Positions 4,325 to 58,075 of a DNA stretch of 64,000 bases are shown piece by piece. The notes below the pieces were generated by a model. That model had not been told where the DNA came from. It did no database searches and was given only the letters and a program-made list of their open reading frames with translations. A program made the translations under genes and the position numbers. Source of the DNA: Eukaryota sp. TZLM1-RC (lineage: Eukaryota > Protista > Metamonada: BaSk clade); contig JAUPSS010000007.1 in assembly GCA_040285825.1 (NCBI GenBank), positions 2,268,689-2,332,688 of the forward strand, given 5' to 3'. Positions within the stretch are counted from its first letter, which is position 1, and each line of letters opens with the position of its first letter.

Positions 4325-6469
4325 ATGACAGACACCCACTCTGTGTCACGTGTATTCACTCGGTCTTGTGCACTTAACTCGCTGCTGACCCCTGCAGCGG
4401 TGCAACAAATTCGGACTGACCTTCCTTTGGTCACCCAGATTTGTCATGAAGCTTCTCTATTGCATCAATCTTTTCTTCTCAATTTTCCGTTGGCATCTAG
4501 AGCTTTAGTGGAACAGGTTTTATGGTATCCGTTTATGACCATCATCACCACTGGTTCTTTTCCAAAGCCTTCCACATCTAAAGGCCAACGCCAATTACTC
4601 CATATCATTTACAATGGATTTCTTCCTGAATGCTCACAAGACAGGTCTCTTGTTTCTTTGTGGGAAAATTCTTTAGTGCCTTACAGAAATTCATTCAATC
4701 TTTTTCTCAATGCTTGGCTGCAATCTCAGAATTTGTAATTTTATCAATAGACAAGGCTTTCTCTTTACCTTGCTTGTCGGGCTCGTCAATTTGCGTCTAA
4801 TGTGAAGACATGTTTACCTAAAATTTGTCAATCCTGGACAAAAAACTTTATTCGTGCTCATTTTAGAGCCTGCATAAAACAAATGTCTTTGCAAATAATA
4901 TTCTTTCACTTTTGCCAGATGAACCATTAGCCCAACCCGAGGAAGTAGTTGTTGATTCTGTTCTTGAATACTACATCAATTTCAATTTGAATAATTCTAG
5001 AGAAAGATTCTTTTTATTAAATGCATGTAAGTTTATCTTGACTCTCCTTCAAAGATTTCCTACCACCGCCTCTCTACTGTCCTCACATGATAAAATCACC
5101 TTTTCATCAAAGGAAATTGGTGAGCTTTTTCTCTTTAATCTTAAAATTTCACAATACTTACTCACTTTCTTTTCTCACATGCATTGCTGGAAGAAACTCA
5201 GAATAATACCTTTAGCCTCTCATAAAGGTTCTAAATTTCATGAGGTTTCTTCACATATTTTCCACTCTGTGAAAAAATTTCCACTTATTGAAGGATTATC
5301 TTCCAAAACAAAGTTTATCAAAAATACATGTCTGAAACGAATATTCAAACAATGTCCTTGTCAAAAATTTAATATCAACATAAAAAGTTTGAAAAATAGA
5401 TTTAAAAATTTTTATTGAAAACTAATGGTAATGAACTGCTTTTGACCTTTGAAGGTAAAAATAATGACTCGAAATTCCACTCTGTGAAAAAAATTCCACA
5501 TTTTGAAGGATTATCTTCCAAAACAAGGTTTATCAAAAATACATGTCTGAAACGAATATTCAAACAATGTCCTTGTCAAAAATTTAATATCAGTTTGAAA
5601 AATAGATTTAAAAATTTTTATTGAAAACTAATGGTAACCTTTGAAGGTAAAAATAATGACTCGAAAACAAAGATGAGTTGGATGAAGCACCGAAAAAGAA
5701 AAGAAGATCAAAACATGAAATAAAAAGTGACCCTAATGCCAACAAAACCAGAGAAACACAATTGAAGGACACTAAAGAAATGCCCCGTCGAAGATGTAGA
5801 CATCCAGTCGAAATTTTACCTGAAAGGCCCTTTATTGGCATTGATCTGGGCCAATCAAGATTATGTGGTTACTTCTTAAATGATAACCAATGTGGAATTA
5901 TTCCTTGTCCAACTGGCAGGAGGTACAGGACAAATCCTTCACCCAGTAAACACTCTCCCAACCAATATTCCGTTCAAAATTTCAACCAATATTTCAACCA
6001 TTGGAATTTGGTTAGGAGGAAAGTGTATTTGAAAAGTAATCGCCAGAAATGGAAGATAATTAAATTTGATAACCGAAGACGAAAAGAGAGACGGTTCAGA
6101 GAGACTCTCAACAAATTTCAAAGGCTGGCTGGACATCCTGATAAACTCTACCTTGCTGTGGGTTCTGCTAATTTCCCTTCACATGGCCGAAAAGTCAATC
6201 GATATGGATCAGCAAGGGCTTTCAGAAAATGGTTGTGTTATCAAAAGGACGTGAAGCACTTGTCAACCAGTGAATTTAATACAAGCAAACTGTCAAGTTG
6301 TTGCATGGCCGAGAATACTCAAACAGGCTCATGGCAGATGCGTGTTTGTACAGAGTGTCAAATAGTATATGACAGAGGTATTTCCGCTGCAAAAAATATT
6401 CAAATTAAGAAGAAAGCGGAATTGTGGCCGGAAAGATACATTTGCCCAGATGCTCTGTTGAGAAGATGA
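4325..6469 (+). pseudogene. Fanzor nuclease (locus B1), full length but frameshifted
   Basis: N-terminus RSCALNSLL...EQVLWYPF aligns with locus C. RuvC-I IGIDLGQSRLCG, RuvC-II region AVGSANF...SEFNTSKLSSCC, Zn finger and RuvC-III CTECQIVYDRGISAAKNI (Asp to Gly here, Asp in B2). Several frameshifts and an internal tandem duplication. Confidence 0.85.
5260..5666 (+). repeat. tandem duplication (about 215 bp plus about 192 bp) inside Fanzor B1
   Basis: ttccactctgtgaaaaaa...aataatgactcgaaa occurs at 5260-5474 and 5475-5666; single copy in paralogue B2. Confidence 0.9.
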
Positions 6470-6501
6470 ATGGGGAACCTGAGCATACAGAAACAAAAAC
6501 T

Positions 6502-6721
6502 TTTGAGACCGATCTACAAATGCCCTAGTAGCATTTGGTAGATCCACTTAGATACATCAAGTCGCGAGGCTTTGTTCTGTGAAAGCAGTAGGTGTATTTA
6601 AGTGAGGTAGCCCATTGATGAAGATCATGATTGTCTTTGTCAAATGATGCTACATGTCTCTTACAGCCTGTGAGTAGATATTGTGAAAGTTGAAAACAGG
6701 AGTGAATTTCACAGGGGAATG
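6502..6721 (+). ncRNA. putative Fanzor omegaRNA scaffold (type B)
   Basis: Directly 3' of the Fanzor stop and conserved at 30204-30413. Closing stem GAGAC/GTCTC encloses GATCTACAAATGC/GCATTTGGTAGATC, ACTTAGATACATC/GGTGTATTTAAGT (with a CTGT-GAAA-GCAG tetraloop arm) and GTAGC..TTGATGAAGAT/GTCTTTGTCAA..GCTAC. Confidence 0.7.
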
Positions 6722-11060: not shown

Positions 11061-11239
11061 AAAAAACTTGTAAAGTCAAATGGTCTGTAGGTGTAAGAGA
11101 CTAGGTATGTTCGTAGGTTCGTAGGGTCAACCTGAAAGTCAACCTGATTGATTTTGAAACTACCCCTGTTTTTGTCAGAAAGGTTAACAAAGATAATTCA
11201 AATGTAGATTTCTGAATATTGTTTTGACAAAAGCCAAAA

Positions 11240-11965
11240 CTTTAAAATAAAATAAAAACGTCATTTATTTATTCAAAACATCAATGAAAAAAAACTAGAA
11301 AAAAGACATCTGAGTTTAACAAGATAAAGATCCTCAGCGAATCTTTGACTGCACTACATGTCTTCCAACAAACAAGGAAGATATGTCTTGATTTGTGGAT
11401 AAAGTGTAACAAAAGTAATCTGCAAACGATACCACCCAATGATGAATGAGGCCAGGTTCGAGTATTGAGATCATCACCGGCTGCTTATTCTTGATTCTTA
11501 AAAATACAGATACATGTAATATCTTCAATGATATTGGGATAGTGTAGTGGGTAAATTGGATGGTTTTATAGTTACAAAAAGGCAAGAGCCATTATGCAGT
11601 TTAGCTACTTTGTTTAAATGGATTTTGTTACCAACACGTTTTGAGCACTACAGAAGAAGAACTGACATGTACCATGTGAACTGGGATTTATATATTTTGT
11701 TGATATGTAAAGCAATGAAGCAGGAATGTTACAAGGTAAGTCACTCTAAGAACACTCTCGTAGCAAGACTTGGTAGGTATGTACTCTAACCATTTGAACT
11801 GCTTAAAGGATTTCACAAATTCTAAATTTCCCATATTCCCACATCATGCCACAACCCAAAAGGAAAGACCTTCACTTCAAAGACGACCCATTTTCCATGG
11901 ACATTTTTTTCCATGTGAAAAGCCACAGGCAGAAATGGCAACACATTGTGAATAACCCTTCTGCA
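11240..11965 (+). repeat. segment duplicated at 54820-55718
   Basis: Near-identical sequence (e.g. gacatctgagtttaacaagataaaga...cacattgtgaataacccttctgc) at both places. Confidence 0.9.
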
Positions 11966-19408: not shown

Positions 19409-19785
19409 TAGGCACTTGTTGAATCGTGGTTTTCTCTGGAAATGCATTATCTGAAATGTCAAATTCCAATACTTCAAGCACATCGACATGTCTAAACTCA
19501 ACCATCCGAAGATGATCGGCTTAGATCAAAATACGTTGGATTTGAAGACTCTTATTGAGGTCTTCTTATAGCTGGGGGTCTTGTATTCAAACAATACCCA
19601 CTTACTGCAATCTCCCACTGGTTTATAATAACCCACTCAGTATTACTGTGAGACAAAACTGTCCATCAATTGGATTGAATTCATCCATGTGATTTGTTCA
19701 AAATGCATTTTTTAGTTACATTTTGGAACAATTCATCAAAATTGACACCCATTTAATCACATATAATTTTATACAAAACCGAAAA

Positions 19786-23790: not shown

Positions 23791-25975
23791 CTGATTTTGA
23801 GAACAACGATCAACCAGTATGTCATTGATGGTCTTTGAATGCTGAAACTGAACAATCATAGTAAGAATACCTACTCTATAGTCATATTAAAATATTCACC
23901 AAACACATGTATGAAAACTAAATTTTAAAAACCAGACTTGACCCACAACATCTTGATTTGGTTGCTTTATTGATATGGACTATCTTATACAATTGAACAG
24001 AAAATTAAATTCTGTTTATCAGAGGTTAATAATGGATATGTAAAGTTCCACTAATTTTCAAAACGAACCCAAGGCAAAATCGACAGGAAAAAACTAATAC
24101 CAATGAAATTTTTGAATCTCATTTTTCAGACACAAATTGTTCAATTCTTCAAGTCAAATAACTGTAATTTCAAAGACAATGTTATCCAACAAGTTTTTGT
24201 TCAATAAACAATTCAAAAAGCATCTACATGATTGTGAGAATAACGCATGCCTGTCTTGAACTCTGATAAATCTATTCATTTCTATCAGCAGCTATGAGTA
24301 TAAGAAATAAGGTCTTCATATCTTCGACAACTTCTTGGTTTTGTTCAGGATTTTCAATGGAGAACAGAAAGAAAGAAATTTGATAAGAAATTGTCAATCG
24401 ATAGTAAGATTTTGAGTGTAACTGAAGAAAACAATCAACACCCGGAAAACCGTTTTGAAGAGTACCCTTACTCTTATTTACCCTTGTTTGACGTAATAGT
24501 GATATGACAATTCGGACTCATAGTGGAGCAAGAATTGGTTTAGAAAGATCAAATCATATTATTCAACTATTAGGATGTCCTAAATTTGCCCAATTTTCAT
24601 TTAAGATTGATCCCAATTGTAATATGAAAACATAATTCCAAAAACTATTGACAAAAACCATGAAGTTGAATAAGATCAGGACGTATTTAATAAATAAGTG
24701 GCTTCATGGTTCATTTAGTAATTCGTTTTGGTAATTCTTTTCCAAACCCATCCACCTCCCAAGGACAACACCAACTACTACTTATCTTTTACAGTGGATT
24801 TCATCCTGAATGCCCACAAGACAGGGCTCTTGTTTCTACATCGGAAAATTCTCTACTTCCTTATAGAAATTCATTCAATATTTTCCTCAATGATTGGCCG
24901 CAGTTACAGAGATGCAATTTTATTATAGAAAAGTACTTTTTCCTTACCTTGCGTGTCGGGCTCGTCAATTGGCATTCAATGTTAAGAGGAGTTTACCTAA
25001 AAATTGTCAATCCTGAACAAAAAACTTGATTCGTGCTCATTGTAGAGCTCTGGATAAAACGATTGTTTTTACCAATTATCTTCTCTCTCTTATACCAGGT
25101 GAACCCTTGGCACCCCTAGAAGCTAGTGAAATAACAAAAGGTGAGCAACCCGAAGAAGTAGTTATTTATTCTATTCTCAAGCCCTACAGAAATTTCCATT
25201 TTATTAAATCAAAAGAAAGATTCCTTTTATTTAATACGTGTAATTTTATCTTGAATATTTTTCAAAAATTTCCTGCCACTGCATCTTTACTATCTTCAAG
25301 TGATAGAATCACCTTTTCTTCAAAGAATTGGTGAGCTTTTTCTCTTTAATCTTAAAATTACACAATACTTACTCACTTTTTTTCTCATTTGCATTGTTGA
25401 AAGAAATTTAGAATAGTACCATCAACTTTTCACACAGGTTCTAAATTTCTTGAGGTACCTTCACATGTTGTCCATTGTGAAAAAATTTCCGCTTATTGAA
25501 GAGTCATTTTCCAAAACAAAGTTTATCAAAAATCGATGTTTAAAAAGCATATTGATACAATGTCCTTACAAAAAGTTTAATATCAACAGAAAATGTTTGA
25601 AAAATAGATTTAAACAATTTTTATGAAAACTAATGGTAAAGAACTGCTTTTGACCTTTGAAGGTGAAAATAAGGACTCAGAAAACACAGATGAGCTGGAT
25701 GAACTACCGAAAAAGAAACGAAGATTAAAAAAAGAAATGAAAAGTGACCCTGATGCCAACAAAATCAGAGAAATACAGTTGAAGGGTACTAAAGAATTCC
25801 CTGTCGAAGACGAAGATATCCCGTCGAATTTTTACTTGAAAGGCCCCTCATTGAACATTGATCTGGGCCAATCTAGATTATGTGGTTACTTCTTAAGTGA
25901 TAATCAATGTGGAGTTATTCGTTGTCCAACTGACAGAAGATACATGACAAAACCTTCACCCAGTAAACACTCTCC

Positions 25976-27200
25976 TCTTCGTTTGAATCCTTTTTTATAA
26001 TTCAAAAAGTTCAAAATGAATTGATTCCCAGTTTATTTTTATTAAAATCATTACAACTACAAAATCAGTTTTTAATATTCAGACACTGTATAAATTCAAT
26101 TTATGATGTACTGGCACCCCGAACAGTTCCTTATGAATGCACCACGATGGGTTTTCATCTTGGGGTTTCAGAATTTGTTGCTTATGTCAACTTAATAGGA
26201 ATGGAAGAATCAAATAATTTTGACTTAATTTATTTGCCTCATTCTTTGGGTGGATTAGGGTTTCTCCATCTGGGACAAGTTACACATATTTGCTATTCAG
26301 TTTCTGTATACTTGGCTGTACGTGATCTTGATTTAACGAATTTAATTCCAAATGATCAGTATAGGGTTTTACTATCAGCTTTATCACCTTCTTTTGCAGG
26401 TTTTGACTCGATTTGGGACAAACGAATCAAAATTTGCCAACGTCAAATCACTCATTTATTTTATAAGGAAAAATTGAGTCTTTTGAAGGAAAAACTATCA
26501 GAATGTGAACGACTACAATTTATTTCAAATTGTAACAGTCAATCATCTTGTTTTTTGAAAGTTTTGCCTATTTCTCAAAATTTTACGTTCTCAGATGATT
26601 GCTTTAAATATCTAATATATATGAGATTGCTTCAAGGATAACAATTTGTGATATGTCCTTTGTGTGGTTATGGCCTAGGCTTTGATCACTCGTTTCAATG
26701 TAGAAAAGTCTCGAGAATGGTTACACAAAGACATGACGAAGTAAATAATTTTATTAACGAACTAAATAATTTTGAATCTGAAAAGGAATTTAAATTTGGT
26801 TTAAATAAGCAGTTACGTGTTGATGGCTTTCAAACGTCAACTAAAATTGCTTTTGATGTTACCATAGTTGGAAGTTATGGTAATAATTGGAGTGATGCTT
26901 TTTCGAAAGCTTATTCTAATAAAATTGCAAAATATTCCATTTTAAAAGAATTAAATTTAATTAACCAAATTGTTCCTCTCGTTTTTAGTGTTCATGGGGG
27001 TTTTTACACTAAAACAAAAATACTGTTTGACCAATTTGGATGGAATGAGGTAGCAGATGAAATTAGTTGTATCATTTTGAAGAATAGCTTTAAATGCCAC
27101 AGTGCTTTTAATTATATACTTCAAAAGAAAAGAGAAGATCGTCAATGTTGGTAGGTAGTTTTTTTAGTGTTCAAATAGTTTCTTCTTAATTCTCAATAAA
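25976..27200 (+). mobile_element. 5'-truncated RLE non-LTR retrotransposon (family RLE-4) with 14-bp TSD
   Basis: IYLPHSLGGLG thumb motif, CPLC...H..QC knuckle, RHD, RVDG...FDVT...KIAKY...PLVFSVHG endonuclease; TSD agtaaacactctcc at 25962-25975 and 27201-27214. Confidence 0.9.
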
Positions 27201-27502
27201 AGTAAACACTCTCCCAACCTATATTCCGTTTAAAATTTCAACCAATTTTTGAAACATTTGAATTTGGTTAAGAGAAAAGTGTACTTGGAAAATAATCGCC
27301 GGAAATGGAAAATAATTAAATTTGATAAGATTTTCGAGATCTTGACGAGATCTTTGCCTAATCTTCATCTTGCTGTTGTGAAATTACAGAAATCTGTTTC
27401 AACTGGTTTTGAAGACCTGGATTTTTCTAAACGACTTAGTGTGACTAAGATTAATAATCCCGTCTTTGCTGCCTTTTTATCAGACATCCAGAATTGCACT
27501 AG

Positions 27503-28922: not shown

Positions 28923-30203
28923 CTAGTTTAATATCTCAGCAACCAAGGCCATTTGGTCTTCACTTATCAAATGAAGCTTGGAAAAAAAACATGCGTTTGA
29001 GATTAAGGATGTATCCAAGTGGTCTTTTGGATAATTCTGTTTGTATTTGTAACGAAAAACCGTCTGCAAATCTCCGTCATATTGTAAGTTGTAAGAAATT
29101 TCTTCAATATCGGTCAGTTCTTCATAATGCTGTTCGTGATGTGACATATGAGATGTTCAAGTGTTACAATTTTAGTTGCAAAGTAGAAGCCTTGCTGAAA
29201 CATTATAGCGATAATAATTTGTTTAATTCACGTCGAGGTGATTTAATTGCTCCTTTTGTGGATTCCTTTCAAGTTGTTGTTGATTTTACTACAGTTGATC
29301 CCTTTGCTATTATTTATCGTGGTGATGTTTTAGTTAGTTCTAATGGTCACTTGAACAAGGCTGAGGTTCGTAAACAAAACAAATATACTGAGATATTAAA
29401 TGATTTAAATAAGAACCTTTACTCGAAGTTTTCGTTGTTCCTTTTGCCTTCTCGATTTTTGGCAACATTGGACAATCTGCCTTGATTTTTCTCAATGATT
29501 TTGATAATTTATGTCGTTCATATGGAAAGAATTTTCAATGAATTTATGGAAGAATCGTATCATTTTTGCTTTGTACAGAAGTGTTCCCGAGTACTTAAAT
29601 TTAATGATGTCCAAGCTGTATAAGGATTCATCAAGAGTTGGCGTGGAGAATTTTGTTTCTTATGTGTTTTAATGTGTTTTGTTTTGTTTTGTTTCTTCGT
29701 AGAATAAATAATTCTTTTTTTAAAAAATTTGATAACCGAAGACGAAAAGAGAGCCGGTTCCGAGAGAGCCTCAACAAATTTCAAAGGCTGGCTGGACATC
29801 CTGAAAAATTCTACCTTGCTGTGGGTTCTGCTAATTTCCCTTCTCATTGCCGAAAAGTCAATTGATATGGATCAGCAAGGGCTTTTAGAAAATGGTTGTG
29901 TTATCAAAAGGACGTGAAGCACTTGTCAACCTGTGAATTTAATACAAGCAAACTATCCAGCTGTTGCATGGCCGAGAATATTAAGCAGGCTCATGGAAGA
30001 TGCGTAATTGTACTGAGTGTCAAATAGTATATGACAGAGATATTTCCGCTGCAAAAAATATTCAAATTAAAAAGAAAGCAGAATTGTGGCCGGAAAGATA
30101 CATTTGCCCATAAGCTTTGTTGAGGAAATGAAAGAAGAACCAGAGCATACAGAAACAAAAATTCTCGAAATTCTTTTGTTTTATTTTGATTTTTTTAAAA
30201 ATT

Positions 30204-30413
30204 TTTGAGACCGATCTATAAATGCCGTAGTAGCATTTGGTAGATCCAATTAGATACATCGAGTTGCGAGGGTTTGTTCTGTGAAAGCAGTAGGTGTATT
30301 TAAGTGAGGTAGCCCATTGATGAAGATCATGATTGTCTTTGTCAAATGTGTCTTACAGCCCGTGAGTAGATATAGAGAAAGTTGAAAACAGGAGTGAATT
30401 TCATAGGGGAATG
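30204..30413 (+). ncRNA. second copy of putative Fanzor omegaRNA (type B)
   Basis: Homologous to 6502-6721; several substitutions keep pairing (e.g. GATCTATAAATGC/GCATTTGGTAGATC uses U-G). Confidence 0.65.
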
Positions 30414-40419: not shown

Positions 40420-42009
40420 ATGTCACTCCCTCTTCAACATGATGATACAATAATAATACCTATGCGCTCTGGTGTCCGTCGTAAATTCATCCTTGGTGTT
40501 TCTACATATGTATTCCTTATCCTTTCCATCATTCTTTGCTTCTCTCTCATTATTATGTACGCCAAAAACAGTCATGACCCTGGTCTCGCAGATTTCCTTG
40601 ATTTTGCTGGATCTGACTATGGATACAATGGCCAAATCTCATCCATTCGAAAGATCTACTTTCCTCAACTCAAGGACCAAACTTACTTAGATTACACTGC
40701 TGCTGGAATACCTACCTCCACGGTCGCATCTCATGCAAGACGTACCTTATCCAACCAGATATTCACCAATCCCCATTCTGGGAGTCAACGGCATGTGATT
40801 GAAGAACAAAGGAAGTTTGTTTCAGACTTTTTCAATGCAAAAGATTATGAATTTGTATTCACTTCAGGAACCACAAATTCTTTAGAATTGATTGCACGTG
40901 ATTTCAGCTTAAAAATGTGCCAATTTTCTAGATTTTTTTATTCGATTGATAATCATTTATCTGTTTTAGGAATGAGAAGTTATTTTAATAACAGTAATTG
41001 GCAGGGTCTTGAATTTAATAGTTTATTGGACAGTGTTTTGAAACGAAATGAGTTTTTGTACAGAAATGAGTTGTTGAATGTTGAAAATATGATTGTCATA
41101 CCGGCTCAATCAAATTTTGATGGAACAGTTTTTGATTATCATGATTTATTTCAACGTATTGAGAAAGATTGCTTAGAAAAAGGAGTTAAAAAATGGACAT
41201 TCGTCCTCGATGCAGCTGCCTACGTTTCTACACATTCTCTAGATCTCAACACCCACAACTACATTGATTACATCCCACTTTCCTTCTACAAGATTATAGG
41301 TTATCCTACTGGTGTGGGGGGATTTTTTGTTAGAAAGACACTTCTTCCCACCTTTGAAAGAGGATACTTTGGCGGAGGCTCTGTTGTCCTCGCCTTACCA
41401 GAAAATGATGTCATTATTGAAAGAGGTAATGACGTCCAAAGAATAGAAACTGGCACCGTTAGTTTTACAGACATACAGTTCCTTACAACAGCATTTGACC
41501 TGATCAACACGTTAGGAATGGATGTTATAGAAAAACATGTTCAATCACTTGTGAAATGGACTGTGGAAAAGATGACTTCTTTGACTCACCAAAATGGACA
41601 ACCATTAATCAAGATATATGGGCCACATTCACCTAAAAGAGGCTCAACAATAGCATTTTCGATATTGGATGACACGGGTCATGTGATTTCTCCTTCTACA
41701 GTATCCAGTAAAGCTGCACTGGCAGGTGTACTCTTCCGCACAGGTTCCATGTGTAACCATGGTGCTTTCATGTCCAATCTTGGAATATCAGAGGAAGAAC
41801 TCTTAAAGTACATTACTGCTGGGTGTGAATGTGTACCAGACTTTTGTAGACACTTTGATGTATCTGCTAATGATTCTGGTGACCCTTGTTTGCCTGATTT
41901 TCTAGATGGTGGTCAACCTAATGCTGTACATAGAATATCATTTGGCTACCCATCTAGTTATCAAGATGTTGTTGCTTTCCTAAAGTTTCTAGAGATTTTT
42001 TCTGGTTGA
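40420..42009 (+). CDS. class V PLP aminotransferase, molybdenum cofactor sulfurase-like (NifS-like domain only) with N-terminal transmembrane anchor
   Basis: YLDYTAAG, NPHS, FTSGTT, DNHLSVLGMR, LDAAAY, SFYKIIGYPTGVG (PLP lysine), RTGSMCN, RISFG; no MOSC domain. Confidence 0.85.
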   Translation: MSLPLQHDDTIIIPMRSGVRRKFILGVSTYVFLILSIILCFSLIIMYAKNSHDPGLADFLDFAGSDYGYNGQISSIRKIYFPQLKDQTYLDYTAAGIPTSTVASHARRTLSNQIFTNPHSGSQRHVIEEQRKFVSDFFNAKDYEFVFTSGTTNSLELIARDFSLKMCQFSRFFYSIDNHLSVLGMRSYFNNSNWQGLEFNSLLDSVLKRNEFLYRNELLNVENMIVIPAQSNFDGTVFDYHDLFQRIEKDCLEKGVKKWTFVLDAAAYVSTHSLDLNTHNYIDYIPLSFYKIIGYPTGVGGFFVRKTLLPTFERGYFGGGSVVLALPENDVIIERGNDVQRIETGTVSFTDIQFLTTAFDLINTLGMDVIEKHVQSLVKWTVEKMTSLTHQNGQPLIKIYGPHSPKRGSTIAFSILDDTGHVISPSTVSSKAALAGVLFRTGSMCNHGAFMSNLGISEEELLKYITAGCECVPDFCRHFDVSANDSGDPCLPDFLDGGQPNAVHRISFGYPSSYQDVVAFLKFLEIFSG

Positions 42010-42139
42010 GACAGTGGATCCAATAGTCTAACCTTGGCTTGAGGAAGAATTTACAAAAAACATTAAAGAGGTCACAAATATTTAGAGTTCTGAAGAATAA
42101 AGAATTTTTATTGGCAAATAATAACTACACAATATTCTG

Positions 42140-42279
42140 TGGTTTTCATTTGAAATGCATACTTTCGTCAAGCATCATTCAAACTTATTCCAAGAACTTT
42201 CATTCTTGGTGAGATCGTCCACAGACGTTCTAGAATCCTCGAATAATTGGCCACCAATCTCAGTGAGCCCATTTCTCCT
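42140..42279 (-). ncRNA. putative Fanzor omegaRNA scaffold (type C)
   Basis: Directly after the locus C stop. Hairpins CCAAGAAT-GAAA-GTTCTTGG, CGTC-TGTG-GACG, GGCTCAC/GTGGCC and AC-GAAA-GT; stems TTATTC/GAATAA and GAAATG/CATTTC. Confidence 0.65.
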
Positions 42280-44133
42280 CTAGAACAATACGTAGCTTTG
42301 AAGCTGGTTTCTTTGTGGTCTCTGGAACGCTTCTGGTCTTGTTCCATAGTAGTGCTCACTAATTGCAATTTCTAGCTGATTTAGTGATGCAGAAATGTCT
42401 CTAGACCATACTTGATTACATTCCGGACAACTGAAATAGGCGTTGTGAACTTTAACTTCACCATCAACTTCTCGATAGATCTTTTGGTGTAGCATCTTAC
42501 AGCAGTTCACCTTTGCAGATGTCGTATATTCATCTCCGATCTTCACATTAGCAAATGAACATTGTAACAACTTGAGAAACGCCTTACGTGGAGTTTTCAC
42601 TTTTTGACGTGATGTACCACCACCTCCATTGCCAAACCACACCTTTACTTCTCGACCGTTTGCAAATTTTTTCACTTTGTTGATAATGGAGCTGAATCTT
42701 TTCTGTTTTCTTATAAAGAAGTCAAATGTGTGTCTCCTCAATGCTTTTCGAGCACTCAGATATAATTGCTGCTTGAGCAATGATCATCTTACGTTATTAC
42801 CTTCATAGTCCTTATAGTCACCGATAGTTGATATTTCAAGCAGATAATGGTTCAATTTCTGCACGTCATAAACATCTATTGATGAGTGGGTCAGTGAAGC
42901 GGAGTGATTGATTTTTCGTTGCTTTGGTGCCAAGAAGATATTGGATACGGTCGGCCCTGAACGTGTTCCAATACTGGAACCACATAGATTTGAGTGGTTG
43001 GGGTCGATGGCCCAGAACACCATTTCCGTTTCGTCATCAGGTGCCTGCCACTCAGTAGCTTTTGGTTTCTGGCGAGGTCTTGGCCGTTCAACCTTGGCTT
43101 GCAAGGTATGTTTTCTATTCCGAGTGGTTTCATAGTAATCAAGTTCCCCTTTGGATCTCTTATCAGCCAAGGCTTCTCCGGACAATCTCACTCGTGTTGC
43201 TTTGGGGTGCGGTTTGAAAGTTATACGGACACTATCACCATTAGAAGACATGGTGTAGTCATTAGCTTTTGTTTTAAACAATAAATAAGGGTTTTTCAAA
43301 ATTGTTTGTGATGTGTTTTTGGAGATAAAATGGTTGAGAACCCATGTGGAAAAGGGGACAAAAGCAGGCTTCAAACTAGCGATGGGAGTGAGTCTATGTC
43401 GTCTAAAGTTATATGGAAAGGCTTGCTCCAGGTCGTTTTGGATTGTTAAGCCGCAACGAAAGATGTAGGTACTGTTCTCTTGATTAAGAGTCACTCTTCG
43501 AGAAGAAAGAAGAGTGTTGTACCTTTGAGGATCACCAACCAAAAAGTTAAACAGAGTAAGAGCCATGGTATGGTGAGTGTTGAACCAAAAAAGAAGAGGT
43601 TCACGAAAGTTCGTGCTATTGTGAAGAACAGAACCAGCATAAGTGGCTGGTGCAGGGCAGTTATAACCTACCGCATACGAGCGGAAGAAGTTAAGCTTCC
43701 ACGACACAAGTCCATCAGCAAGAAGCTGCTGGTAGTTGCCTTGCAGCTGGCGGCACTTTGCATCCACTAGTTGTTGTAGAGGCCTACTAGTGGGTAGTGC
43801 ATGATTACGACCTGTTCGTGACAAGAACAAGACAGCAAACGGCCATGATGTAGAGATTCGCTCGAGCTTCTCATACACATGGCCTTTGCCAGGTCTGTTA
43901 AATGGATGTCTGACTTCTGGCTTAGAGACCGCCACAAAGTCAAGACACTGGATCCAGAATTGATGCTGAGTCAGGAAATGACTGTCTTCAGGGAAGCGCA
44001 CAGCAAAAACTCTGGCCAGCAAACTGCCGAGGTGAGCCATGGTGGTAACCTTGGTCAGCTGTCCATCAATGTAATCACACACTGGCCGCTCAAAGAACTG
44101 ATGAAGGGAGCAGGCACGTGCCCATGACTGCAT
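42280..44133 (-). CDS. Fanzor RNA-guided RuvC endonuclease (locus C), 617 codons, single in-frame TGA at codon 450
   Basis: RuvC-I VFWAIDPN, bridge-helix region LRRHTFDFFIRKQKRF, VWFGNGGG...GDEYTTSAKVNCC (Fanzor-type shifted Glu), CPEC...WSRDISASLN, RPEAFQR. The two ORFs are in the same frame across TGA 42784-42786. Confidence 0.9.
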
Positions 44134-45248
44134 AGTCCTTACTGAAAACGGAAGGTGCAGACAATCAAAAATGATTGATTTCTCAGTTTCAGTTACTTTT
44201 AAAATTTGGTTTATTTTCAACTCCTTACATCCACAAAACAATGAAACATGCACAAACTGATAAATAGATACATTTATAATAGATACTGGACATGCTTTAA
44301 GCATTTTCTTTCCTAAAAATAGTAAACTGATGCGAAATTTGACGAAATTGTTGTTAGTCAAAGCAGTTGTTCGTTTAATCAACGGTGTTTGTAGATTCAA
44401 TAAATTCGTAAAGTTTCACAATGTAATTCCTTTATTCAGAACACACATGTTACCAAGGGAAGTCACAACACCCGTTTCTTCCTTACCATTTCTTTCCCTC
44501 TTTGACGAAGAACCTTTTGCTCTTCGTTCAACTATATCTGAGTTTGCCATGGATCTTTGTGGAACTGTTGGCTTTTCTATTATAGCGATTATAGGTTTCG
44601 TTTAGTGCGCTCACACATTGACTATAAAACATTGAATCCCATAAAATAGACTAACAAAAGACAGTCTGTAGAGACACTACTGGCTATTCTTGAGTCTAAA
44701 CTCGAGTCTATTGCAGATCGTCCATCCCAAGCTGTGCCAACAACTTCTGCTGTGTCACCCCTTTCAGCTGCACTTCTTGTCTTGAAACTAGACATCTGAA
44801 TACTTATTATTACCTTGTCTCTCTACTTCGCCCTCTTCACCCTCTTTCTACTCATCTTTCTTCCATAGAAGATGTTCCTCCTGTCTTCACTTGTATTACC
44901 ATCACTTATCAATATACACCCTTACACCTCTGGTATCGTTTGTTCACTCTCTACGAATCAACTCACTCCAATCTTAATCTACTCCACTCTAACCTACTGC
45001 TGATATACATGAACTTCTAAAGTCTAATGAGCAGAAGATTATTGAACTTAATGAACTCCAATTGAAACTGCATTGAAGACACTTGTAATGTTAGTTACAT
45101 GGCTTCCTTGCAGAGATTGATTTTGACTAATTTCATATTAATGTAGTGTGATACGATAATAAGTCTGAAGACGTCCACGCTGCTATGAGTGAAACCTATC
45201 CCCTTGATTTCAGGTTCGGACTCTTGAGAAAGAAGATTTTCTGGTTAA

Positions 45249-45302
45249 TAACCTATTTCTACCTATAAATAACCTAAAGTAACCTATAAATAACCTATAA
45301 CT
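45249..45302. repeat. short tandem repeat (about 10-11 bp, AACCTATAAAT-like)
   Basis: taacctatttctacctataaataacctaaagtaacctataaataacctataact. Confidence 0.6.
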
Positions 45303-45605
45303 AATAGTTCCAAAATAAAATATTATCGATTCATGTTTTATTATAGTGTTCGTTCAAGTGTTGGTAAAAAGAATAGTGTTGGTGAAAGAAGTGGTGTGGT
45401 GAAAGAGGACTTTATAATTAAGGTGAAGATTGAGGAAGATTTACCTGTTCAATGAATAGAATCTGATACTCCTCTTTTAAAATTAACACAGTAATGTTAT
45501 TAATTCTAGGATCTGACATATATGTCATATATGGTGTAGAAGTTTAGCTAAACTTCAATTCTTATCACATAAAGAAAGTATGTGTTGCTTCAAGTAGAGC
45601 AAAAA

Positions 45606-46004
45606 CTAAGCAGCCCTCAGTACAAAATGCCTTCCTCTATATTTGACATCAACAACAATTGTGCTTCTTCCAGCAGTACCATAAAGTGGTATACCTCTAT
45701 CAGCCAATCGTTGAAGCACAACCGAAGAGAGGATGTCCATAACCATTGGTTGCAGAGGCCGAGTCAATTGTATTTTAGTGTTTACAGCATGAAAGATGTA
45801 AAACTTCCTAAAAGTTTTACATCTTCCATGGTGAACAACTTTCAGCAATTGGGCACTGAGGTTGTTTAACTTAATAGAATTCATTGCTCTTTCGGTTGAT
45901 TCTTCAGCATCACCTGTAAACACAGCCTTGAAATCACCGTATACAGCCCGTAGATAGACACATTTAGCATGAAGATCAGAGCCAATAAATATGGGATTCA
46001 ACAC
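45606..46004 (-). pseudogene. ComEC/Rec2-type metallo-beta-lactamase-fold fragment
   Basis: YGDFKAVFTGDAE...LSAQLLKVVHHG, then GYGHP in another frame, and VLQRLADRGIPLYGT; frameshifted. Confidence 0.7.
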
Positions 46005-46439
46005 TTCTAGGGCAACTGATCAACTTCAATAGCTTAATGGGATTACTCTTCTCTTGCTTTATGATGAGATTGGAGACGAGAGAGGGTGCGTTCGCAAGCA
46101 GTATAGTTTTGATGAGAGCGATCCAACTGGGAAAGCAATAGAGCATTCTCATCACCAATAGTTTGTGTAGAAAAACAGAACACAACAGAAATCAGAGCAA
46201 CAATGTTTGGTTGTAATTGTGTCAATTATTGGCACAATAAATTGAAGATGGTGGCATATATGGTTGAGAAATATGGGGTAAGTAGCAGCAAAAAAGAAGT
46301 GACGAAATGAAATTCAAATGTAAATCTGAGGAATGGTAACCACACAACCAAACTCATCTCACCAATTTTTGTATCATGTAATTCTTTTTTGAAGAAAGGA
46401 AAACATTCAACATGTAAACTGAAGTGATATGTACCATCA

Positions 46440-48026: not shown

Positions 48027-49573
48027 ATGAATAACGCTCTACAAACCACAACTGTGGGAGCGTCTGCCAACCAGTTTTTTGGCTCAGAAGCAGGATAATC
48101 TATGGAAAGGCAATTCGAAGTTCTCGCTAGTATTGGAGCTCATGCTACTCATTTAGCACGACCCTCTATACTCCAATACCCAGAACACTCTATGTGGCTT
48201 ACTCAAAGCCAGTTCTGGTGCCTCTGTTTCGACTTTGTTTTTGAAAGAGAACCTAAACAAAAAAACCATTATAGAACCAGCCTGTGGATTTTCTAGCGCT
48301 GCAACATCTTGTTCAGCACTTTTGGCTATGGCGCCCACTGAATGAAACCACGTCAGCTAACGGTGTGAGAATCTGGTGCCACTCCAGTCTGCTTGGCAGT
48401 CTAGCCATTCAACTGTAGGAAGCTTTCTGCCAACTGTTGGCTGACAGCCTGTTGTGTGGAAACACAATTGTTTCAACAGCTTTGACCAGAATCGTCCCAA
48501 AAAGTACACTGGGTGTGTACTTAGAGATCTTCGGCCGGTGATACCATTTCACAATGGAATGCACCAACATATTTTGACTCACTGGCTACATAGGACAGTA
48601 AATGCCTATATTGGTGGAATTCAAAATATGTTGGAAACCTCAATGAGAAATAAACTATTTATCATAAATGTGCAAACTGCAGCCACAATCTGTCAGTCAG
48701 GACTGAACATTTTATCTTTTTCAGAAGATAAATGCCCTGCGGTTATGAAAAGGCACTCTCTCGCCTTTATCCAGTTGGTATCAATGCTTCTGCAGTTTGA
48801 ATAAAAAAGCCCAATCTAATTTACAGTGTTCGGCGGTGCGGGGTGTACGGGTTCGTGCTGGGTGCGCACCCCGTACCCTCAGTGCGTGAAGAAAGTGGTG
48901 TGGTGCGGGTACAGGGTGCGTTGTTCTATTTAACAATAAAAGAAATTACATATAATTTATACTAGATCAATAAGGTATTAGTCAATAGTCAAATCATCTA
49001 ACATTGGTCAAATCATCAAAAAATGGATCTACAAACCACTCAGCTTCAGATACTTCATCCTCAGACTCAACTTCATCAACCTCACAATCTTTTGATGTCT
49101 CCGATCCCAAATTTTCTTCAAGCTCATAATTGCTATCATTTTCTTCTTCGATGATGCTTTGGACACCCATTCCGTCTCCTAAATAGTCTACTGCTAGTAC
49201 TTGTCTAGCTAACTTCTCATTGTGCTTGATGAAGACTAATTTCCGAAGTTTTTCTGACAAGATTCTGTTTCTCTTCTTAGTATGAATAGCTTCATACTGA
49301 GACCAGTTTCTCTCACAGGCTGAAGCTGAAGCAACTTGGGCTAGAATTCTTTGCGCAACAAACTGCAGTATCTTTCATAGAACGATCTATCATGATGACG
49401 GAAGGGTAAATAACGCTAAGTTCGATTGCCCTCGATGTCAGACCAACTGGTCTAAGGACATCTTAGCCTCCAGAAATCAGCTGGAGATTACAATCAGTGA
49501 GTATTTCACTGGTACTAGGTCAGAACCATTCCAAAGACCAAGGCGTGTGAGACGTCTAAGGAGACAGCAGTAG
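48027..49573 (+). pseudogene. Fanzor locus D, central part replaced by a hAT remnant
   Basis: YPEHSMWLTQSQFWCLCFDFV aligns with locus C FPEDSHFLTQHQFWIQCLDFV; 49371-49573 reads CPRCQTNWSKDILASRNQLEITISEYFTGTRSEPFQRP, matching the locus C C-terminus. Confidence 0.85.
48824..49370 (-). mobile_element. hAT DNA transposon 3' remnant
   Basis: hAT dimerisation domain ILAQVASASACERNWSQYEAIHTKKRNRILSEKLRKLVFIKHN; terminus CAGTGTT at 48824 with GC-rich subterminal repeats. Confidence 0.85.
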
Positions 49574-49685
49574 CTGTTTTCGCCAACGAAAATCCAAGGT
49601 GTTTAGTGTATACTAACCCTTGGTACTGAGAAGTTTACATCAGTGTTGGCGATATTTATTCCTTTCCATTTGATGTGAAATTCTT
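49574..49685 (+). ncRNA. putative Fanzor omegaRNA scaffold (type D)
   Basis: Starts just after the stop. Closing stem TCGCCAAC (49580-49587)/GTTGGCGA (49645-49652) encloses CCAAGG..TTAGTGTATACTAA..CCTTGG and ACTGA..TCAGT hairpins. Confidence 0.65.
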
Positions 49686-54780: not shown

Positions 54781-54819
54781 CTCCAAAATTTCCAGCATTA
54801 ATTTTCAGAAGCAAACTCA

Positions 54820-55718
54820 AACTTTGAAATAAAATAAAACGTCGACTATTTATTCAAACAAACATCATTGCATGAACAATCAAACTAGGAAAAAAACATC
54901 TGAGTTTAACAAGATAAAGAACCTCAGCGAATCTTTGACTACACTACATGTCTTCCAACAAACAAGGAAGATATGTTGTTGATTTGTGGATAAAGTGTAA
55001 CAAAAGTAATCTGCAAACGATACCATCCAATAATGAATGAGGCCAGGTTCGAGTATTGAGATTATGCCCGGCTGCTTATTCTTGATTCTTAAAAATACAG
55101 ATACATGTAAAATCTTCAATGATATTGAGATAGTGCAGTGGGACGTAAATTGAATGGTTTTATAGTGACAAAAAGGCAGGAGCCATTATGTAGTTTAATT
55201 ACTTTGTTTATATGGATTTTGTTACCAACACGTTTTGAGCACTACAGAAGAAGATCTGACATGTGTTGGCTCCTCGCCATAGTTAGTTGTTTGTTCTTTA
55301 CAGTAATCACATGATGCCACGTCATCACGTATTAATCTAGATATAATTTCATTTGATTATTCACTCCCGTTGTAATAAACACCCTGTTTTCCCGTTTATT
55401 ACCCGATGCATGCCCATGATGATATTGACCCAACACATGTACCATGTGAACTGGGATTTATATATTTTGTTGACATGTAAAGCAATGAAGCAGGAATGTT
55501 ACAGGGTACGTCACTCTAAGAACACTCTCGTAGCAAAACTTGGTAGATATGTACTCTAACCATTTGAACTGCTTGAAGGATTTCACAAATTCTAAATTTC
55601 CCATATTGCCACATCGTGCCACAACCCAAAAGGAAAGACCTTCACTTCAAAGACGACCCATTTTCCATGTGAAAATCCACATGCAGAAATGGCAACACAT
55701 TGTGAATAACCCTTCTGC
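54820..55718 (+). repeat. decayed duplicate of 11240-11965, including the 5' part of the 11726-12700 gene
   Basis: Second intron donor mutated (gt to at), small deletion, solo LTR inserted, truncated where Fanzor E begins. Confidence 0.85.
55264..55435. mobile_element. solo LTR (172 bp) with CATG TSD
   Basis: TGTTG...CAACA termini, CATG on both sides, internal AATAAA; the empty site gacatgtacc is visible in the paralogous segment near 11665. Confidence 0.85.
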
Positions 55719-55719
55719 T

Positions 55720-58075
55720 ATTTGTTTCGTTAAATACGAACTGTCTGCGTCTTGGCCTGTCGTCTTGCTCAATAATTTATGCTGCTGCATCCGCAGATAG
55801 GTCACTGGTTGTATCATCAACAGTTCTGGTATCAGTGTATGGACTTTGTGATGAAGGTCAATCCTCCAGTCCAAGCAATCTTTGAGAACCATCAGGAAGT
55901 TTACAAGGCCTTCTCTTATGCGAATGACCCAACCGAATGACCTGTATACCCTCTGGGTTGTGATAAAAGGACTGAAAACTGGTGTCATTCTGTCATCCGG
56001 AGCTTTTGCGCATTTCAAATGTCGACCAGCTTCTGTTAAACTATGACAGATGGCCCAGTTGTATAAAAGCTCAACTTCTATAAAACCATGGCAGTGTTTT
56101 TTGACTGTGAATCTCCGAAAAAATACGTTGTTGCCGTTCTCAAAGATGCAGCCGTTTCTGAGCAGTTACTGGGTTGGTGTGAGCAACATCATGCTTTCAA
56201 CCTTGATTTATTTAACCAACAAGTAGGTGACCTTGCCGAGTTCAAAGCCCTCATGGAACGCTGAACCAATGACCTTTAGCTTCGCCGCCAGCTTCCGTAT
56301 TTTGTCCTTCCTCGAGAATGAGGCGGGTGAAAAAATGAAAAGGCGTGCTCTGGCTCCCTCCGCAAGTTACTCTCCTGGCTTTATTTTATTCAGCCAGATA
56401 TTGACAAAACACCTTTTACGTTTGAACCCAGACAAACAATCTTTGAGGAACCCATTCAAACATTTCAACATGAAAAATGTTTCCCCATAGACCATTGCAT
56501 CGGATGGAGTACAAGTCAGATTAACTTTTTGGGCAGCCCTAAAAAAACCAAAAACCGCCGCACAGCCAGAGAATTCGCAGCCGATAAAACCAGTGGCGAA
56601 TACGATATGCTTGCAAAGAGTCGAAAGCGAAACTGCGAACTTCAACAACAGGTTTGTCCCAGGCAATTTCCAAAAACTGATGACGCCTACGAATACTCAG
56701 TTTGTGCAAATAATCTTACCCAGAAAAATTTGTGTGGCTATTCAATTGGATAAAGAAAAGATGATAACAGTGTTGACCATCAACTTTTGGGCCTTGTTTT
56801 AAATTCAAAGGCAAGGAAGATCATTCATCCACTGGTCTAGACCCATGTATCATCTAAGTTGCTATTTTGTACAGGATTTCCGCGAATGTCTGTGTGAAAT
56901 AGCAACGCCATTGGCATTGGTATTGACAAAGGAAGAAATCAGGAATCCCGGCTTCCGTCCGAGAACTATACTAGACCAATTGCTGATAAATGGAGATTGC
57001 TGAGTCCTGCGCCGCAACAAGTTTGACTTCTTTAAAAAAAGCAAAAATTGACTAATAATATTTATTGAAAAAATACACTGGTGCCTGTAATTAGTCTCAC
57101 TGAGACTAATTTTGTACTCCGTATTTTCAATGTTTAGGACAATATTAGTTTCAGTGAAACTAATTCTGCACTGAGACTAATTCTGCACTGAGACAAAATT
57201 TGTCCTGATGTTCTGAAGTAATAAAAACACTTTATTTGGTCGAAATATTCCAATACATAGCAATCTTCATCATCTCCCTCCAAGATTGAGGAAGATTGTT
57301 GTCTGTTTCATTTTCATCAGTAGAGGGAGATTCATTAGCAGCATTATAAGACGAAGGATTGCGGAGCTCAACTTTCGCAAATGCTCAAAGGATAAGGGAC
57401 CCTGAAAAGATATTGTTCATTAACAAAGGGTAGGAGCTACTGAAAGGAACAAACTAGACAGAATACAATCTTTGATATGTGTTTAATACCACACTATAGT
57501 TATGTTTTCGAAGTTTCATATGTGAATGCTCCATGAAAAAGAGGTCTTGTTTACTGTTGAGCTATTACATCCATTGCAAACTTTATCAAATGGAATAATT
57601 TTAAACAATATTAGTCTCACTTGAGGAGTTTGGGACACCTCTTGAACAATATTAGTCTCAGTGAGACTAACTGTGCACTGAGATTAATTTTGCACTGAGA
57701 CTAATTACAGGCATGAGTGTAAATAGCTAGTGAAAGAGAAACAAAAATTTGGTTTGGAAGTGGGGGTGATAAGCTTTCAAGACAAGCTCTTAAGACCCCA
57801 GAGAATCTCTTTTAGAAGGAGATTCAGAAACATTTTACATATGTGAAGCCTAATGGAGATGAATTCTACACATCTGCCAAAACTAATTGCTGTAAGGTAT
57901 TGAATCAAAAATTGTATCATGATAATGGGAGTTAAACAATGATAGGTTTGTTTGCCCTCAATGTCAGACATTTTGGTCGATAGACATCTCAGCCTCCAGA
58001 AACCAGCTGAAGATTGCCATGTGTGAGCATTGCTACAATAAAAGACCTAAGGCGTTTTGGAAACCCCATAGATAA
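55720..58075 (+). pseudogene. Fanzor locus E, 5'-truncated, degenerate, split by a MITE
   Basis: HPQIGHWLYHQQFWYQCMDFV; RRALAPSASYSPGFI; TIASDGVQVRLTF; NLCGYSIG; KWRLL; LRRNKFDFF; after the MITE IWFGSGG...GDEFYTSAKTNCC...CPQCQTFWSIDISASRNQL...KRPKAFWKP. Confidence 0.85.
57076..57719. mobile_element. MITE (644 bp), Tc1/mariner-type TA TSD
   Basis: TIR CACT(GG/CA)TGCCTGTAATTAGTCTCA at both ends, TA at 57074-57075 and 57720-57721, subterminal TGCACTGAGACTAATT repeats; removing it rejoins the Fanzor E sequence. Confidence 0.9.

What the first reader, a model, noticed from the sequence alone, without database searches (positions are those of the whole stretch)
42140..42279. Type-C omegaRNA candidate with two GAAA-tetraloop hairpins
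On the Fanzor strand the 140 nt after the stop contain CCAAGAAU-GAAA-GUUCUUGG (8 bp), AC-GAAA-GU, CGUC/GACG and enclosing stems. G-U pairs and GNRA loops work only on this strand, which supports an RNA-level structure in the Fanzor orientation. The candidate guide would be the flank starting near CACAGAATATTGTGTAG.
Basis: partly seen in the sequence, partly recalled or inferred. Interest (0 to 1): 0.78.

Follow-up and report, generated by a model that had tools for sequence, protein, structure and literature searches.

The report
Fanzor guide-RNA scaffold at element end
The last ~150 bases of a multicopy mobile element in a free-living protist are predicted to fold into the guide-RNA scaffold of its RNA-guided DNA cutter (Fanzor1-like), likely a new example of a known system, lying beside a broken copy of the gene.

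Summary
Five contigs of other copies leave the window at 42135-42138 with different flanks, so the element ends at about 42136 and the guide would start at about 42135, not at CACAG. The family's real stop is 42306-42304; this copy reads through it and also carries a premature stop at 42786-42784. With the true end included, the predicted fold changes: a long first hairpin (42286-42227), then a 7-bp terminal stem UCUGUGG/CCACAGA closing a three-way junction with the CCAAG-GAAA hairpin and a third hairpin (150 nt: z -3.7 minus, -2.8 plus). The CGUC/GACG stem falls to P 0.06-0.00. The second 'GAAA tetraloop' has P 0.03-0.04 and is broken in most sister contigs. A diverged paralogue at 19.5 kb keeps hairpins 1 and 3 with three two-sided changes (hand-anchored) but lacks the GAAA hairpin. 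An intact sister protein folds like solved Fanzor1s (Z 18-20). Expression, binding, the left end and the TAM are untested. Verdict: likely a Fanzor1-type omegaRNA; new host lineage, known principle.

The parts
42136..42286 (-). Predicted omegaRNA scaffold, about 151 nt (5' end inferred from the first helix; the 3' UTR begins at 42303)
   Evidence: Fold; element end; family stop
42227..42286 (-).
   Evidence: Basal pairs P 0.93-1.0; 7 of 7 basal pairs kept in the 19.5-kb paralogue with 2 two-sided and 1 one-sided change, hand-anchored
42219..42225 (-). 5' strand (UCUGUGG) of the terminal stem
   Evidence: P 0.72-1.0 with 42142-42136; unchanged in the loose end of one diverged contig that differs at about 5 of 30 neighbouring places (read by eye)
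42136..42142 (-). 3' strand (CCACAGA) of the terminal stem, which is also the last bases of the element
   Evidence: Loose ends at 42135 (2 contigs), 42136 (2) and 42138 (1); chance of such a stem at a random end 57 of 2552 and 15 of 400
42190..42209 (-).
   Evidence: P 0.95-1.0; the commonest variant, A to G at 42204, keeps a G-U pair; absent from the paralogue
42148..42184 (-). Hairpin 3, with a 5-nt variable loop (not a GAAA tetraloop)
   Evidence: variants 42167 and 42168 fall in the loop; the paralogue pairs 10 of the same 3'-strand positions, with the same U bulge and one U-A to G-C change
42121..42135 (-). Predicted guide: host flank just past the element end (15 nt assumed from published Fanzor1s)
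   Evidence: Flanks differ among copies; length from PMC10432273 and PMC10711439 passages
42304..44133 (-). Fanzor1-like ORF, 609 codons in intact sister copies; here a pseudogene
   Evidence: PF07282 E 3.8e-5; fold of sister P0023
42784..42786 (-). Premature TGA in this copy; sister copies read Arg here
   Evidence: (1 of 1 covering contig in each of X1, X2, X3)
42304..42306 (-). Family stop codon, lost in this copy (read-through to 42282-42280)
   Evidence: 2 X1 contigs and 1 X2 contig, all of the depth; P0014, P0017, P0023 end at RPQRN
19424..19626 (-). Diverged, decayed paralogous Fanzor 3' remnant with a homologous, shorter 3' structure (UUCG-loop hairpin 1, hairpin 3, shared end motif)
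   Evidence: tblastn E 0.007; 19 of 22 nt end motif; fold z -2.09 minus and -0.17 plus
42115..42152 (.). Imperfect palindrome (15 of 19) across the element end: the flank resembles an inverted copy of the last 17 nt
   Evidence: 4 of 63,951 centres (2 sites) in the window reach this; unexplained

Best explanation
The stretch 42286-42136 (minus strand) is the right end of a multicopy mobile element carrying a Fanzor1-like gene, and it likely encodes that nuclease's omegaRNA scaffold, predicted to fold into a long first hairpin and a terminal stem that closes a three-way junction, with the host flank from about 42135 as the would-be guide. SHOWN: the gene, its intact sister copies, the sharp right end, the true stop, two lesions in this copy. 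PREDICTED: the fold. INFERRED from published Fanzor1s: a transcript runs through the end into the flank; it is trimmed to the scaffold plus about 15 nt; the protein binds hairpin 1 and the terminal stem; the guide directs a cut at the empty insertion site next to a TAM from the left flank, which would help copies persist or spread. This copy's own protein is truncated before most of the RuvC domain, so its RNA could only work with protein from an intact copy, like the Spu-1 'ghost' loci.
For: Element end: 5 contigs with loose ends at 42135-42138, and no cover of 42090-42134 in 3 of 3 runs. The terminal stem ends exactly there (P 0.72-1.0); chance 57 of 2552 random ends for a perfect 7-mer partner and 15 of 400 random 168-nt windows for a confident long-range terminal stem. 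Folding z -3.71 for 150 nt and -4.9 for the 90-nt core, where 7 of 710 window tiles fall below -4 and 2 below -4.9. Paralogue at 19.5 kb: shared 19 of 22 end motif (chance mean 0.05); hairpins 1 and 3 kept with 3 two-sided changes and 1 one-sided; folds on the minus strand only (z -2.09 against -0.17). Of 12 variant rows in sister contigs, 6 are at unpaired places; the commonest stem change (42204, 5 of 5 X1 contigs) keeps a G-U pair that exists only on the minus strand. Protein: 24-member cluster with intact 609-aa copies; RuvC D, E, D invariant or nearly so; the AF2 model of P0023 (pLDDT 88) matches SpuFz1, GtFz1 and PpFz1 over its whole length (Z 17.8-20.0, rmsd 4.5-6.1 A, 458-511 aligned) against Fanzor2 Z 11.3 and TnpB Z 12.2 (Foldseek E 3e-14 against 4e-3). 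Literature: Fanzor1 RNAs abut the right end, lack the pseudoknot and end in a double-stranded stem (PMC10711439, PMC11832414 passages); GtFz1's is 150 nt with several stem-loops (PMC11423790 passages).
Against: No expression or binding evidence. Of the 6 stem variants, 4 break a pair (each in a single contig of depth 3-4.5), and none is a two-sided change within the family; by row count the plus strand keeps as many (2 of 6) as the minus. The paralogue covariation is two sequences, anchored by hand: MAFFT and RNAalifold did not recover it. The paralogue lacks the GAAA hairpin and forms the terminal stem only when forced (-24.0 against -25.7 kcal/mol). X2's contig departs at 42138, so it may break the second terminal pair. 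With the last 12 codons included, the terminal stem drops to P 0.11-0.16. The plus strand and ssDNA on both strands also beat shuffles (z -2.7 to -3.9). The family-only profile and single proteins do not find Fanzor1 in PDB by sequence; the folding alignment held distant Fanzor1-like hits and may lean the model. RuvC-I reads DPN, not DPG. X1 and X2 are one sample.
Confidence: 0.72

Rival explanations
1. The inverted repeats are a DNA-level end signal (ssDNA hairpins or a protein-binding end, as in Helitron2 or IS200/605-type ends), with no selected RNA function.
For: ssDNA folds about as well on both strands (z -3.15 to -3.85). The 3'-most 22 nt are the best-conserved part between paralogues. 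No TIR or TSD was found. Some Fanzor1s ride Helitron2 elements (PMC3627910 passages).
Against: Six G-U pairs in the model, the majority A to G variant, and the paralogue's minus-only folding favour the transcribed strand. Hairpin 1, 90-150 nt inside the end, keeps its pairing through changes. No CTRR end, and no transposase or helicase found upstream. The two roles are not exclusive.
Confidence: 0.1
2. The hairpins are chance folding or an ordinary mRNA 3' UTR structure of a decaying element.
For: Four singleton variants break stems. The 5' core boundary was chosen after the fact.
Against: z -3.7 to -4.9 with corrected ends; the terminal stem coincides with an end defined independently; helices are kept in a diverged paralogue.
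Confidence: 0.1
3. It is an omegaRNA, but with a TnpB/Fanzor2-type pseudoknot: the (C)GUC/GAC(G) hairpin forms and its UGUG loop pairs with the terminal CACA.
For: The same bases are complementary; the CGUC/GACG hairpin has P 0.9 when the last 4 nt are missing; such pseudoknots escape nested folding (PMC11832414 passage).
Against: C42227 is taken by hairpin 1 (P 0.99), leaving a 3-bp stem, and the nested 7-bp stem dominates. Published Fanzor1 RNAs lack the pseudoknot and the protein folds as Fanzor1. Pseudoknot energy was not computed here.
Confidence: 0.08

Closest known systems
GtFz1 omegaRNA, Guillardia theta Fanzor1 (PDB 9cer; PMC11423790)
   Same: About 150 nt; a first stem-loop followed by several further stems before the guide; protein fold match Z 19.7
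   Different: No sequence likeness tested; here two branch hairpins are predicted inside a terminal stem; protein identity 12%; this locus is a pseudogene
SpuFz1 omegaRNA and Spu-1 ghost loci, Spizellomyces punctatus (PDB 8gkh, 9cez; PMC10432273)
   Same: [quoted passage not shown]
   Different: 75-nt two-stem scaffold and 30-nt inverted repeats there; about 151 nt and no inverted repeat found here; DPN instead of DPG; 15-16% identity
SfAV Fanzor1 reRNA (PMC10711439)
   Same: Predicted three-stem shape, no pseudoknot, last bases in a double-stranded stem, possibly including a target-site base
   Different: TIR and TSD are defined there; neither was found here
ApmFz2 and ISDra2 TnpB RNAs (PDB 9b0l, 8h1j; PMC11832414)
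   Same: The scaffold's last bases pair with a distant upstream segment
   Different: There it is a pseudoknot, here a nested stem is predicted; the proteins match much more weakly (Z 11.3, 12.2)

Membership tests
Fanzor omegaRNA | Lies between the 3' end of a Fanzor ORF and the element's right end | tested here: met
   Family stop 42306-42304, end about 42136
Fanzor omegaRNA | Conserved scaffold followed by a variable flank (guide) | tested here: met
   5 contigs with loose ends at 42135-42138; flank agreement 0.63-0.68 within rows
Fanzor omegaRNA | Stable secondary structure on the coding strand | tested here: met
   z -3.71 and -4.9; the plus strand is also below -2.7
Fanzor omegaRNA | Structure conserved by covariation | tested here: inconclusive
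   3 two-sided changes in one hand-anchored paralogue; not recovered by RNAalifold; none within the family
Fanzor omegaRNA | Expressed as a small RNA running about 15 nt past the end | not testable with these tools
   Needs small-RNA reads of the host
Fanzor omegaRNA | Binds the Fanzor and guides cleavage next to a TAM | not testable with these tools
   Needs RNP purification and a TAM screen
Fanzor1 omegaRNA | Last scaffold bases in a double-stranded stem, no pseudoknot (PMC10711439) | tested here: inconclusive
   Nested stem predicted at P 0.72-1.0; pseudoknot not modelled; the paralogue forms it only when forced
Fanzor1 omegaRNA | TIR or TSD built into the scaffold | tested here: inconclusive
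   No TIR above chance and no TSD found; left end unknown, sister contigs run past 45000
Fanzor1 protein | RuvC D-E-D with the glutamate moved next to the zinc finger | tested here: met
   D377, E535, D579 with C545, C569, C572 nearly invariant; the first zinc-finger Cys position holds Val or Thr
Fanzor1 protein | RuvC-I DPG fingerprint ('near exclusively', PMC10711439) | tested here: not met
   DPN in 10 of 12 aligned family members, none DPG; hence called Fanzor1-like
Fanzor1 protein | TDG motif in WED | tested here: inconclusive
   SNG or TNG in this family; TDG in the relative P0041
Fanzor1 protein | Full-length fold of solved Fanzor1s, distinct from Fanzor2 and TnpB | tested here: met
   Z 17.8-20.0, rmsd 4.5-6.1 A, 458-511 aligned, against 11.3 and 12.2; atlas TM 0.64-0.69 to clusters of 625-818 aa
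Helitron-borne Fanzor1 | CTRR 3' end, or asymmetric terminal repeats with end hairpins, and a Rep-helicase partner | tested here: inconclusive
   The end reads CCACAGA, not CTRR; no family hit in six frames of 44416-45602; left end unknown

The most novel reading that the evidence does not exclude
A deeply diverged Fanzor1-like lineage (12-16% identity to solved Fanzor1s, DPN active site, altered zinc finger) has expanded into several families in skoliomonad metamonads as elements with a sharp right end but no terminal repeat, target duplication or transposase. It spreads by RNA-guided homing or borrows the genome's abundant non-LTR machinery, and the palindrome across this end is a footprint of insertion next to end-like sequence that makes the guide partly self-complementary.
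Probability: 0.12. Interest if true: 0.62.

Novelty: new member of a known kind. Interest (0 to 1): 0.33.

Why it matters
If right, it gives exact scaffold and guide boundaries for an untested, very divergent Fanzor1-like family with intact 609-aa copies, so a TAM screen can be set up at once. It would also extend Fanzor guide RNAs to free-living metamonads, for which I found no report in the library ('Fanzor' + 'metamonad': 0 papers; no listed paper held 'Skoliomonas' with 'Fanzor' or 'TnpB'; supplements of the Fanzor surveys were not read and may list them). The principle, an omegaRNA built from the element end, is already established, so the surprise is small.

Tried and rejected
No whole genome is held, so the about 24 genomic copies could not be aligned at DNA level. 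No RNA holder listed; this says nothing on expression. Rfam: 1 chance match (E 2.3) in 41900-42500. Viral contigs: 5 pattern hits, 0 relatives. Metagenome contigs: 350 pattern hits, 0 relatives; a 19-nt scaffold pattern gave 16 loci, 0 of 16 similar beyond the pattern and no tblastn hit. X3 and X4 do not cover the right end. TIR search: the terminal 13-mer has 2 matches against 4.0 expected; the best upstream match is 12 of 16 at 46331, not above chance. TSD: the flank 8-mer has no copy upstream. No transposase in 44416-45602. MAFFT and RNAalifold on the two paralogues gave no consensus structure. The 3' regions of the paralogues at 49.5 kb and 58.1 kb and of the other family (6.5 kb, 30.1 kb) show no significant likeness to this scaffold; an apparent CUGUG/CACAG stem in the 6.5-kb copy is not in its predicted fold and was dropped. 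Sequence-only PDB searches with the window protein, the family profile and P0041 missed Fanzor1. The bacterial promoter/terminator scan is uninformative for a eukaryote. TGA recoding was rejected as the cause of the internal stop: sister copies read Arg there, and the neighbouring host gene ends in TGA. Earlier-findings look-ups by place and by sequence were empty.

Full report
Setting. The window is eukaryotic, about 36% GC and rich in decayed non-LTR retrotransposon ORFs. On the minus strand at 44133-42304 lies a TnpB-family gene (PF07282, E 3.8e-5), convergent with a class-V aminotransferase gene at 40420-42009. Of the 12 homologues found, 11 are named, all from 'Eukaryota sp. TZLM1-RC', 'GEM-RC1' and 'TZLM3-RCL'; the twelfth is the window's own protein. 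PMC11603281 (passages) describes these isolates as Skoliomonas, free-living metamonads, so the host is likely a skoliomonad (inference). The window protein's 90% cluster has 24 members. Of the 4 long members read, 3 are intact at 609 aa and one has lost the first catalytic motif.

The gene in this copy. It has two lesions. One is a premature TGA at 42786-42784, where the covering contig in each of three runs and the intact proteins read Arg. The other is loss of the family stop at 42306-42304, where 3 of 3 covering contigs have TAG and the intact proteins end at RPQRN.

Protein class. D377, E535, D579 and three cysteines are nearly invariant among 44 aligned relatives. Sequence alone does not reach solved Fanzors from this family. 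The link is transitive: family profile to P0098 (E 5e-12), and P0098 to SpuFz1 (E 5e-41); a broadened profile gives E 2e-67 to SpuFz1 against 5e-10 to Fanzor2. An AF2 model of the intact sister P0023 (pLDDT 88, pTM 0.82) matches SpuFz1, GtFz1 and PpFz1 over its full length: Z 17.8-20.0, rmsd 4.5-6.1 A, 458-511 residues, 12-16% identity, against Z 11.3 for ApmFz2 and 12.2 for TnpB. The alignment used for folding held Fanzor1-like distant hits (43 other rows, chosen by me). The Atlas's own model independently matches clusters of 625-818 aa at TM 0.64-0.69. RuvC-I is DPN rather than the DPG fingerprint of PMC10711439 (passages), so I call the protein Fanzor1-like.

The element end. Contigs from runs X1 and X2 (one sample) cover the element but nothing left of 42135. 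Five contigs have loose ends at 42135 (2), 42136 (2) and 42138 (1), with differing flanks. The last shared base is about 42136. The left end was not found: sister contigs run past 45000, and no TIR, TSD or transposase was detected.

The fold. Adding the 4 missing bases switches the prediction: UCUGUGG (42225-42219) pairs with the terminal CCACAGA (P 0.67-0.93; 0.72-1.0 with the whole UTR), and CGUC/GACG falls from 0.9 to 0.06 and then 0.00. The model is hairpin 1 (42286-42227), then a terminal stem enclosing the CCAAG-GAAA hairpin (P 0.95-1.0) and hairpin 3 (42184-42148). AC-GAAA-GU has P 0.03-0.04 in all 9 folds. The 150-nt region scores z -3.71 against -2.80 on the plus strand; the 90-nt core scores -4.9 against -2.7, with 7 of 710 tiles below -4 (20 shuffles each; the core's 5' edge was chosen afterwards). 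A perfect 7-mer partner occurs for 57 of 2552 random ends, and a confident long-range terminal stem in 15 of 400 random windows, so the coincidence with the end is modest evidence (p about 0.02-0.04). Against: when the last 12 codons are included the terminal stem falls to P 0.11-0.16, which either weakens the model or means that the mature fold needs 5' trimming. Single-stranded DNA folds as well on both strands.

Variation. The other 6 lie in the GAAA hairpin: 2 keep pairing (A to G at 42204 in 5 of 5 X1 contigs gives G-U, possible only on the minus strand; X2's contig has the window's letter) and 4 singletons break it. By rows the plus strand keeps 2 of 6 too. A decayed paralogue at 19626-19424 shares the end motif (19 of 22; chance mean 0.05) and folds on the minus strand only (z -2.09 against -0.17). 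Anchored by hand, it keeps 7 of 7 basal pairs of hairpin 1 (G-C to A-U, A-U to G-U, G-U to C-G) and hairpin 3 with the same U bulge and one U-A to G-C change. It lacks the GAAA hairpin, and forms the terminal stem only when forced, at 1.7 kcal/mol above its minimum. Automatic alignment did not recover these pairs.

Mechanism. By analogy (inference) with SpuFz1 (PMC10432273 passages), GtFz1 (PMC11423790 passages), SfAV Fz1 (PMC10711439 passages) and the fRNAs of PMC10530073 (passages), a transcript through the right end would be trimmed to the scaffold plus about 15 nt of flank, load the nuclease and direct a cut at the empty site. Fanzor1 RNAs end in a double-stranded stem in place of the TnpB/Fanzor2 pseudoknot, as predicted here. 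This locus could act only in trans, with protein from an intact copy.

Unexplained. The flank 42115-42133 is an imperfect inverted copy of 42134-42152 (15 of 19); only two such sites exist in 64 kb. The one unmixed sister flank (X2) does not show it by eye. The terminal stem survives it in prediction (P 0.85-1.0).

Novelty and verdict. Literature searches found no Fanzor report for metamonads. I saw search listings and the passages cited above, of PMC3627910 and of 10.1101/2023.05.03.539051; I read no whole text and no supplement. Four earlier AI notes on other genomes describe the same arrangement (leads, not support).

Noticed in passing
window 42115-42152: Imperfect palindrome (15 of 19) centred 2 nt outside the element end; the would-be guide matches the element's own end on the other strand at 14 of 18.
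   Followed up: partly
window 5660-6721 and 29725-30413 (+), pieces at 25476-27328: A second Fanzor-like family in at least three broken copies; the 250 nt after the stop at 6469 are predicted to be highly structured (-76.4 kcal/mol, with a U-GAAA-G loop), and the two copies part at about 6721/30413, a candidate right end.
   Followed up: partly
window 48036-49574 (+) and 55734-58075 (+): Two further decayed paralogues of the Fanzor family (41-47% identity subfamilies); the 49.5-kb one has long predicted hairpins after its stop.
   Followed up: partly
window 19424-19409 (-): The paralogue's end motif stops about 15 nt before the likely start codon of an RRM-domain host gene, so a guide from that copy would run into the gene's 5' end.
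   Followed up: no
protein P0206 (related genome, 1323 aa): A predicted protein joining XPG/Exo1-type nuclease domains (E 1e-13, 5e-12) to a full Fanzor of the second family; a real fusion, a cargo gene or a gene-model artefact.
   Followed up: no
window 45606-46200 (-), hairpin at 45785-45833: Broken ORF with GDAE and VVHHG motifs recalled from ComEC-type metallo-beta-lactamase-fold proteins (recalled; my one Pfam scan, used another frame, so untested); it holds the window's other long palindrome.
   Followed up: no
window 11237-11964 and 54819-55718: A 91% identical repeat of about 700 nt, one copy directly upstream of the 55.7-kb Fanzor paralogue; its nature is unknown.
   Followed up: no
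window 21-23 kb, 33-37 kb, 46-48 kb, 51-54 kb, 58-60 kb: Many non-LTR retrotransposon remnants with reverse-transcriptase and C-terminal endonuclease-like motifs, in several subfamilies.
   Followed up: no
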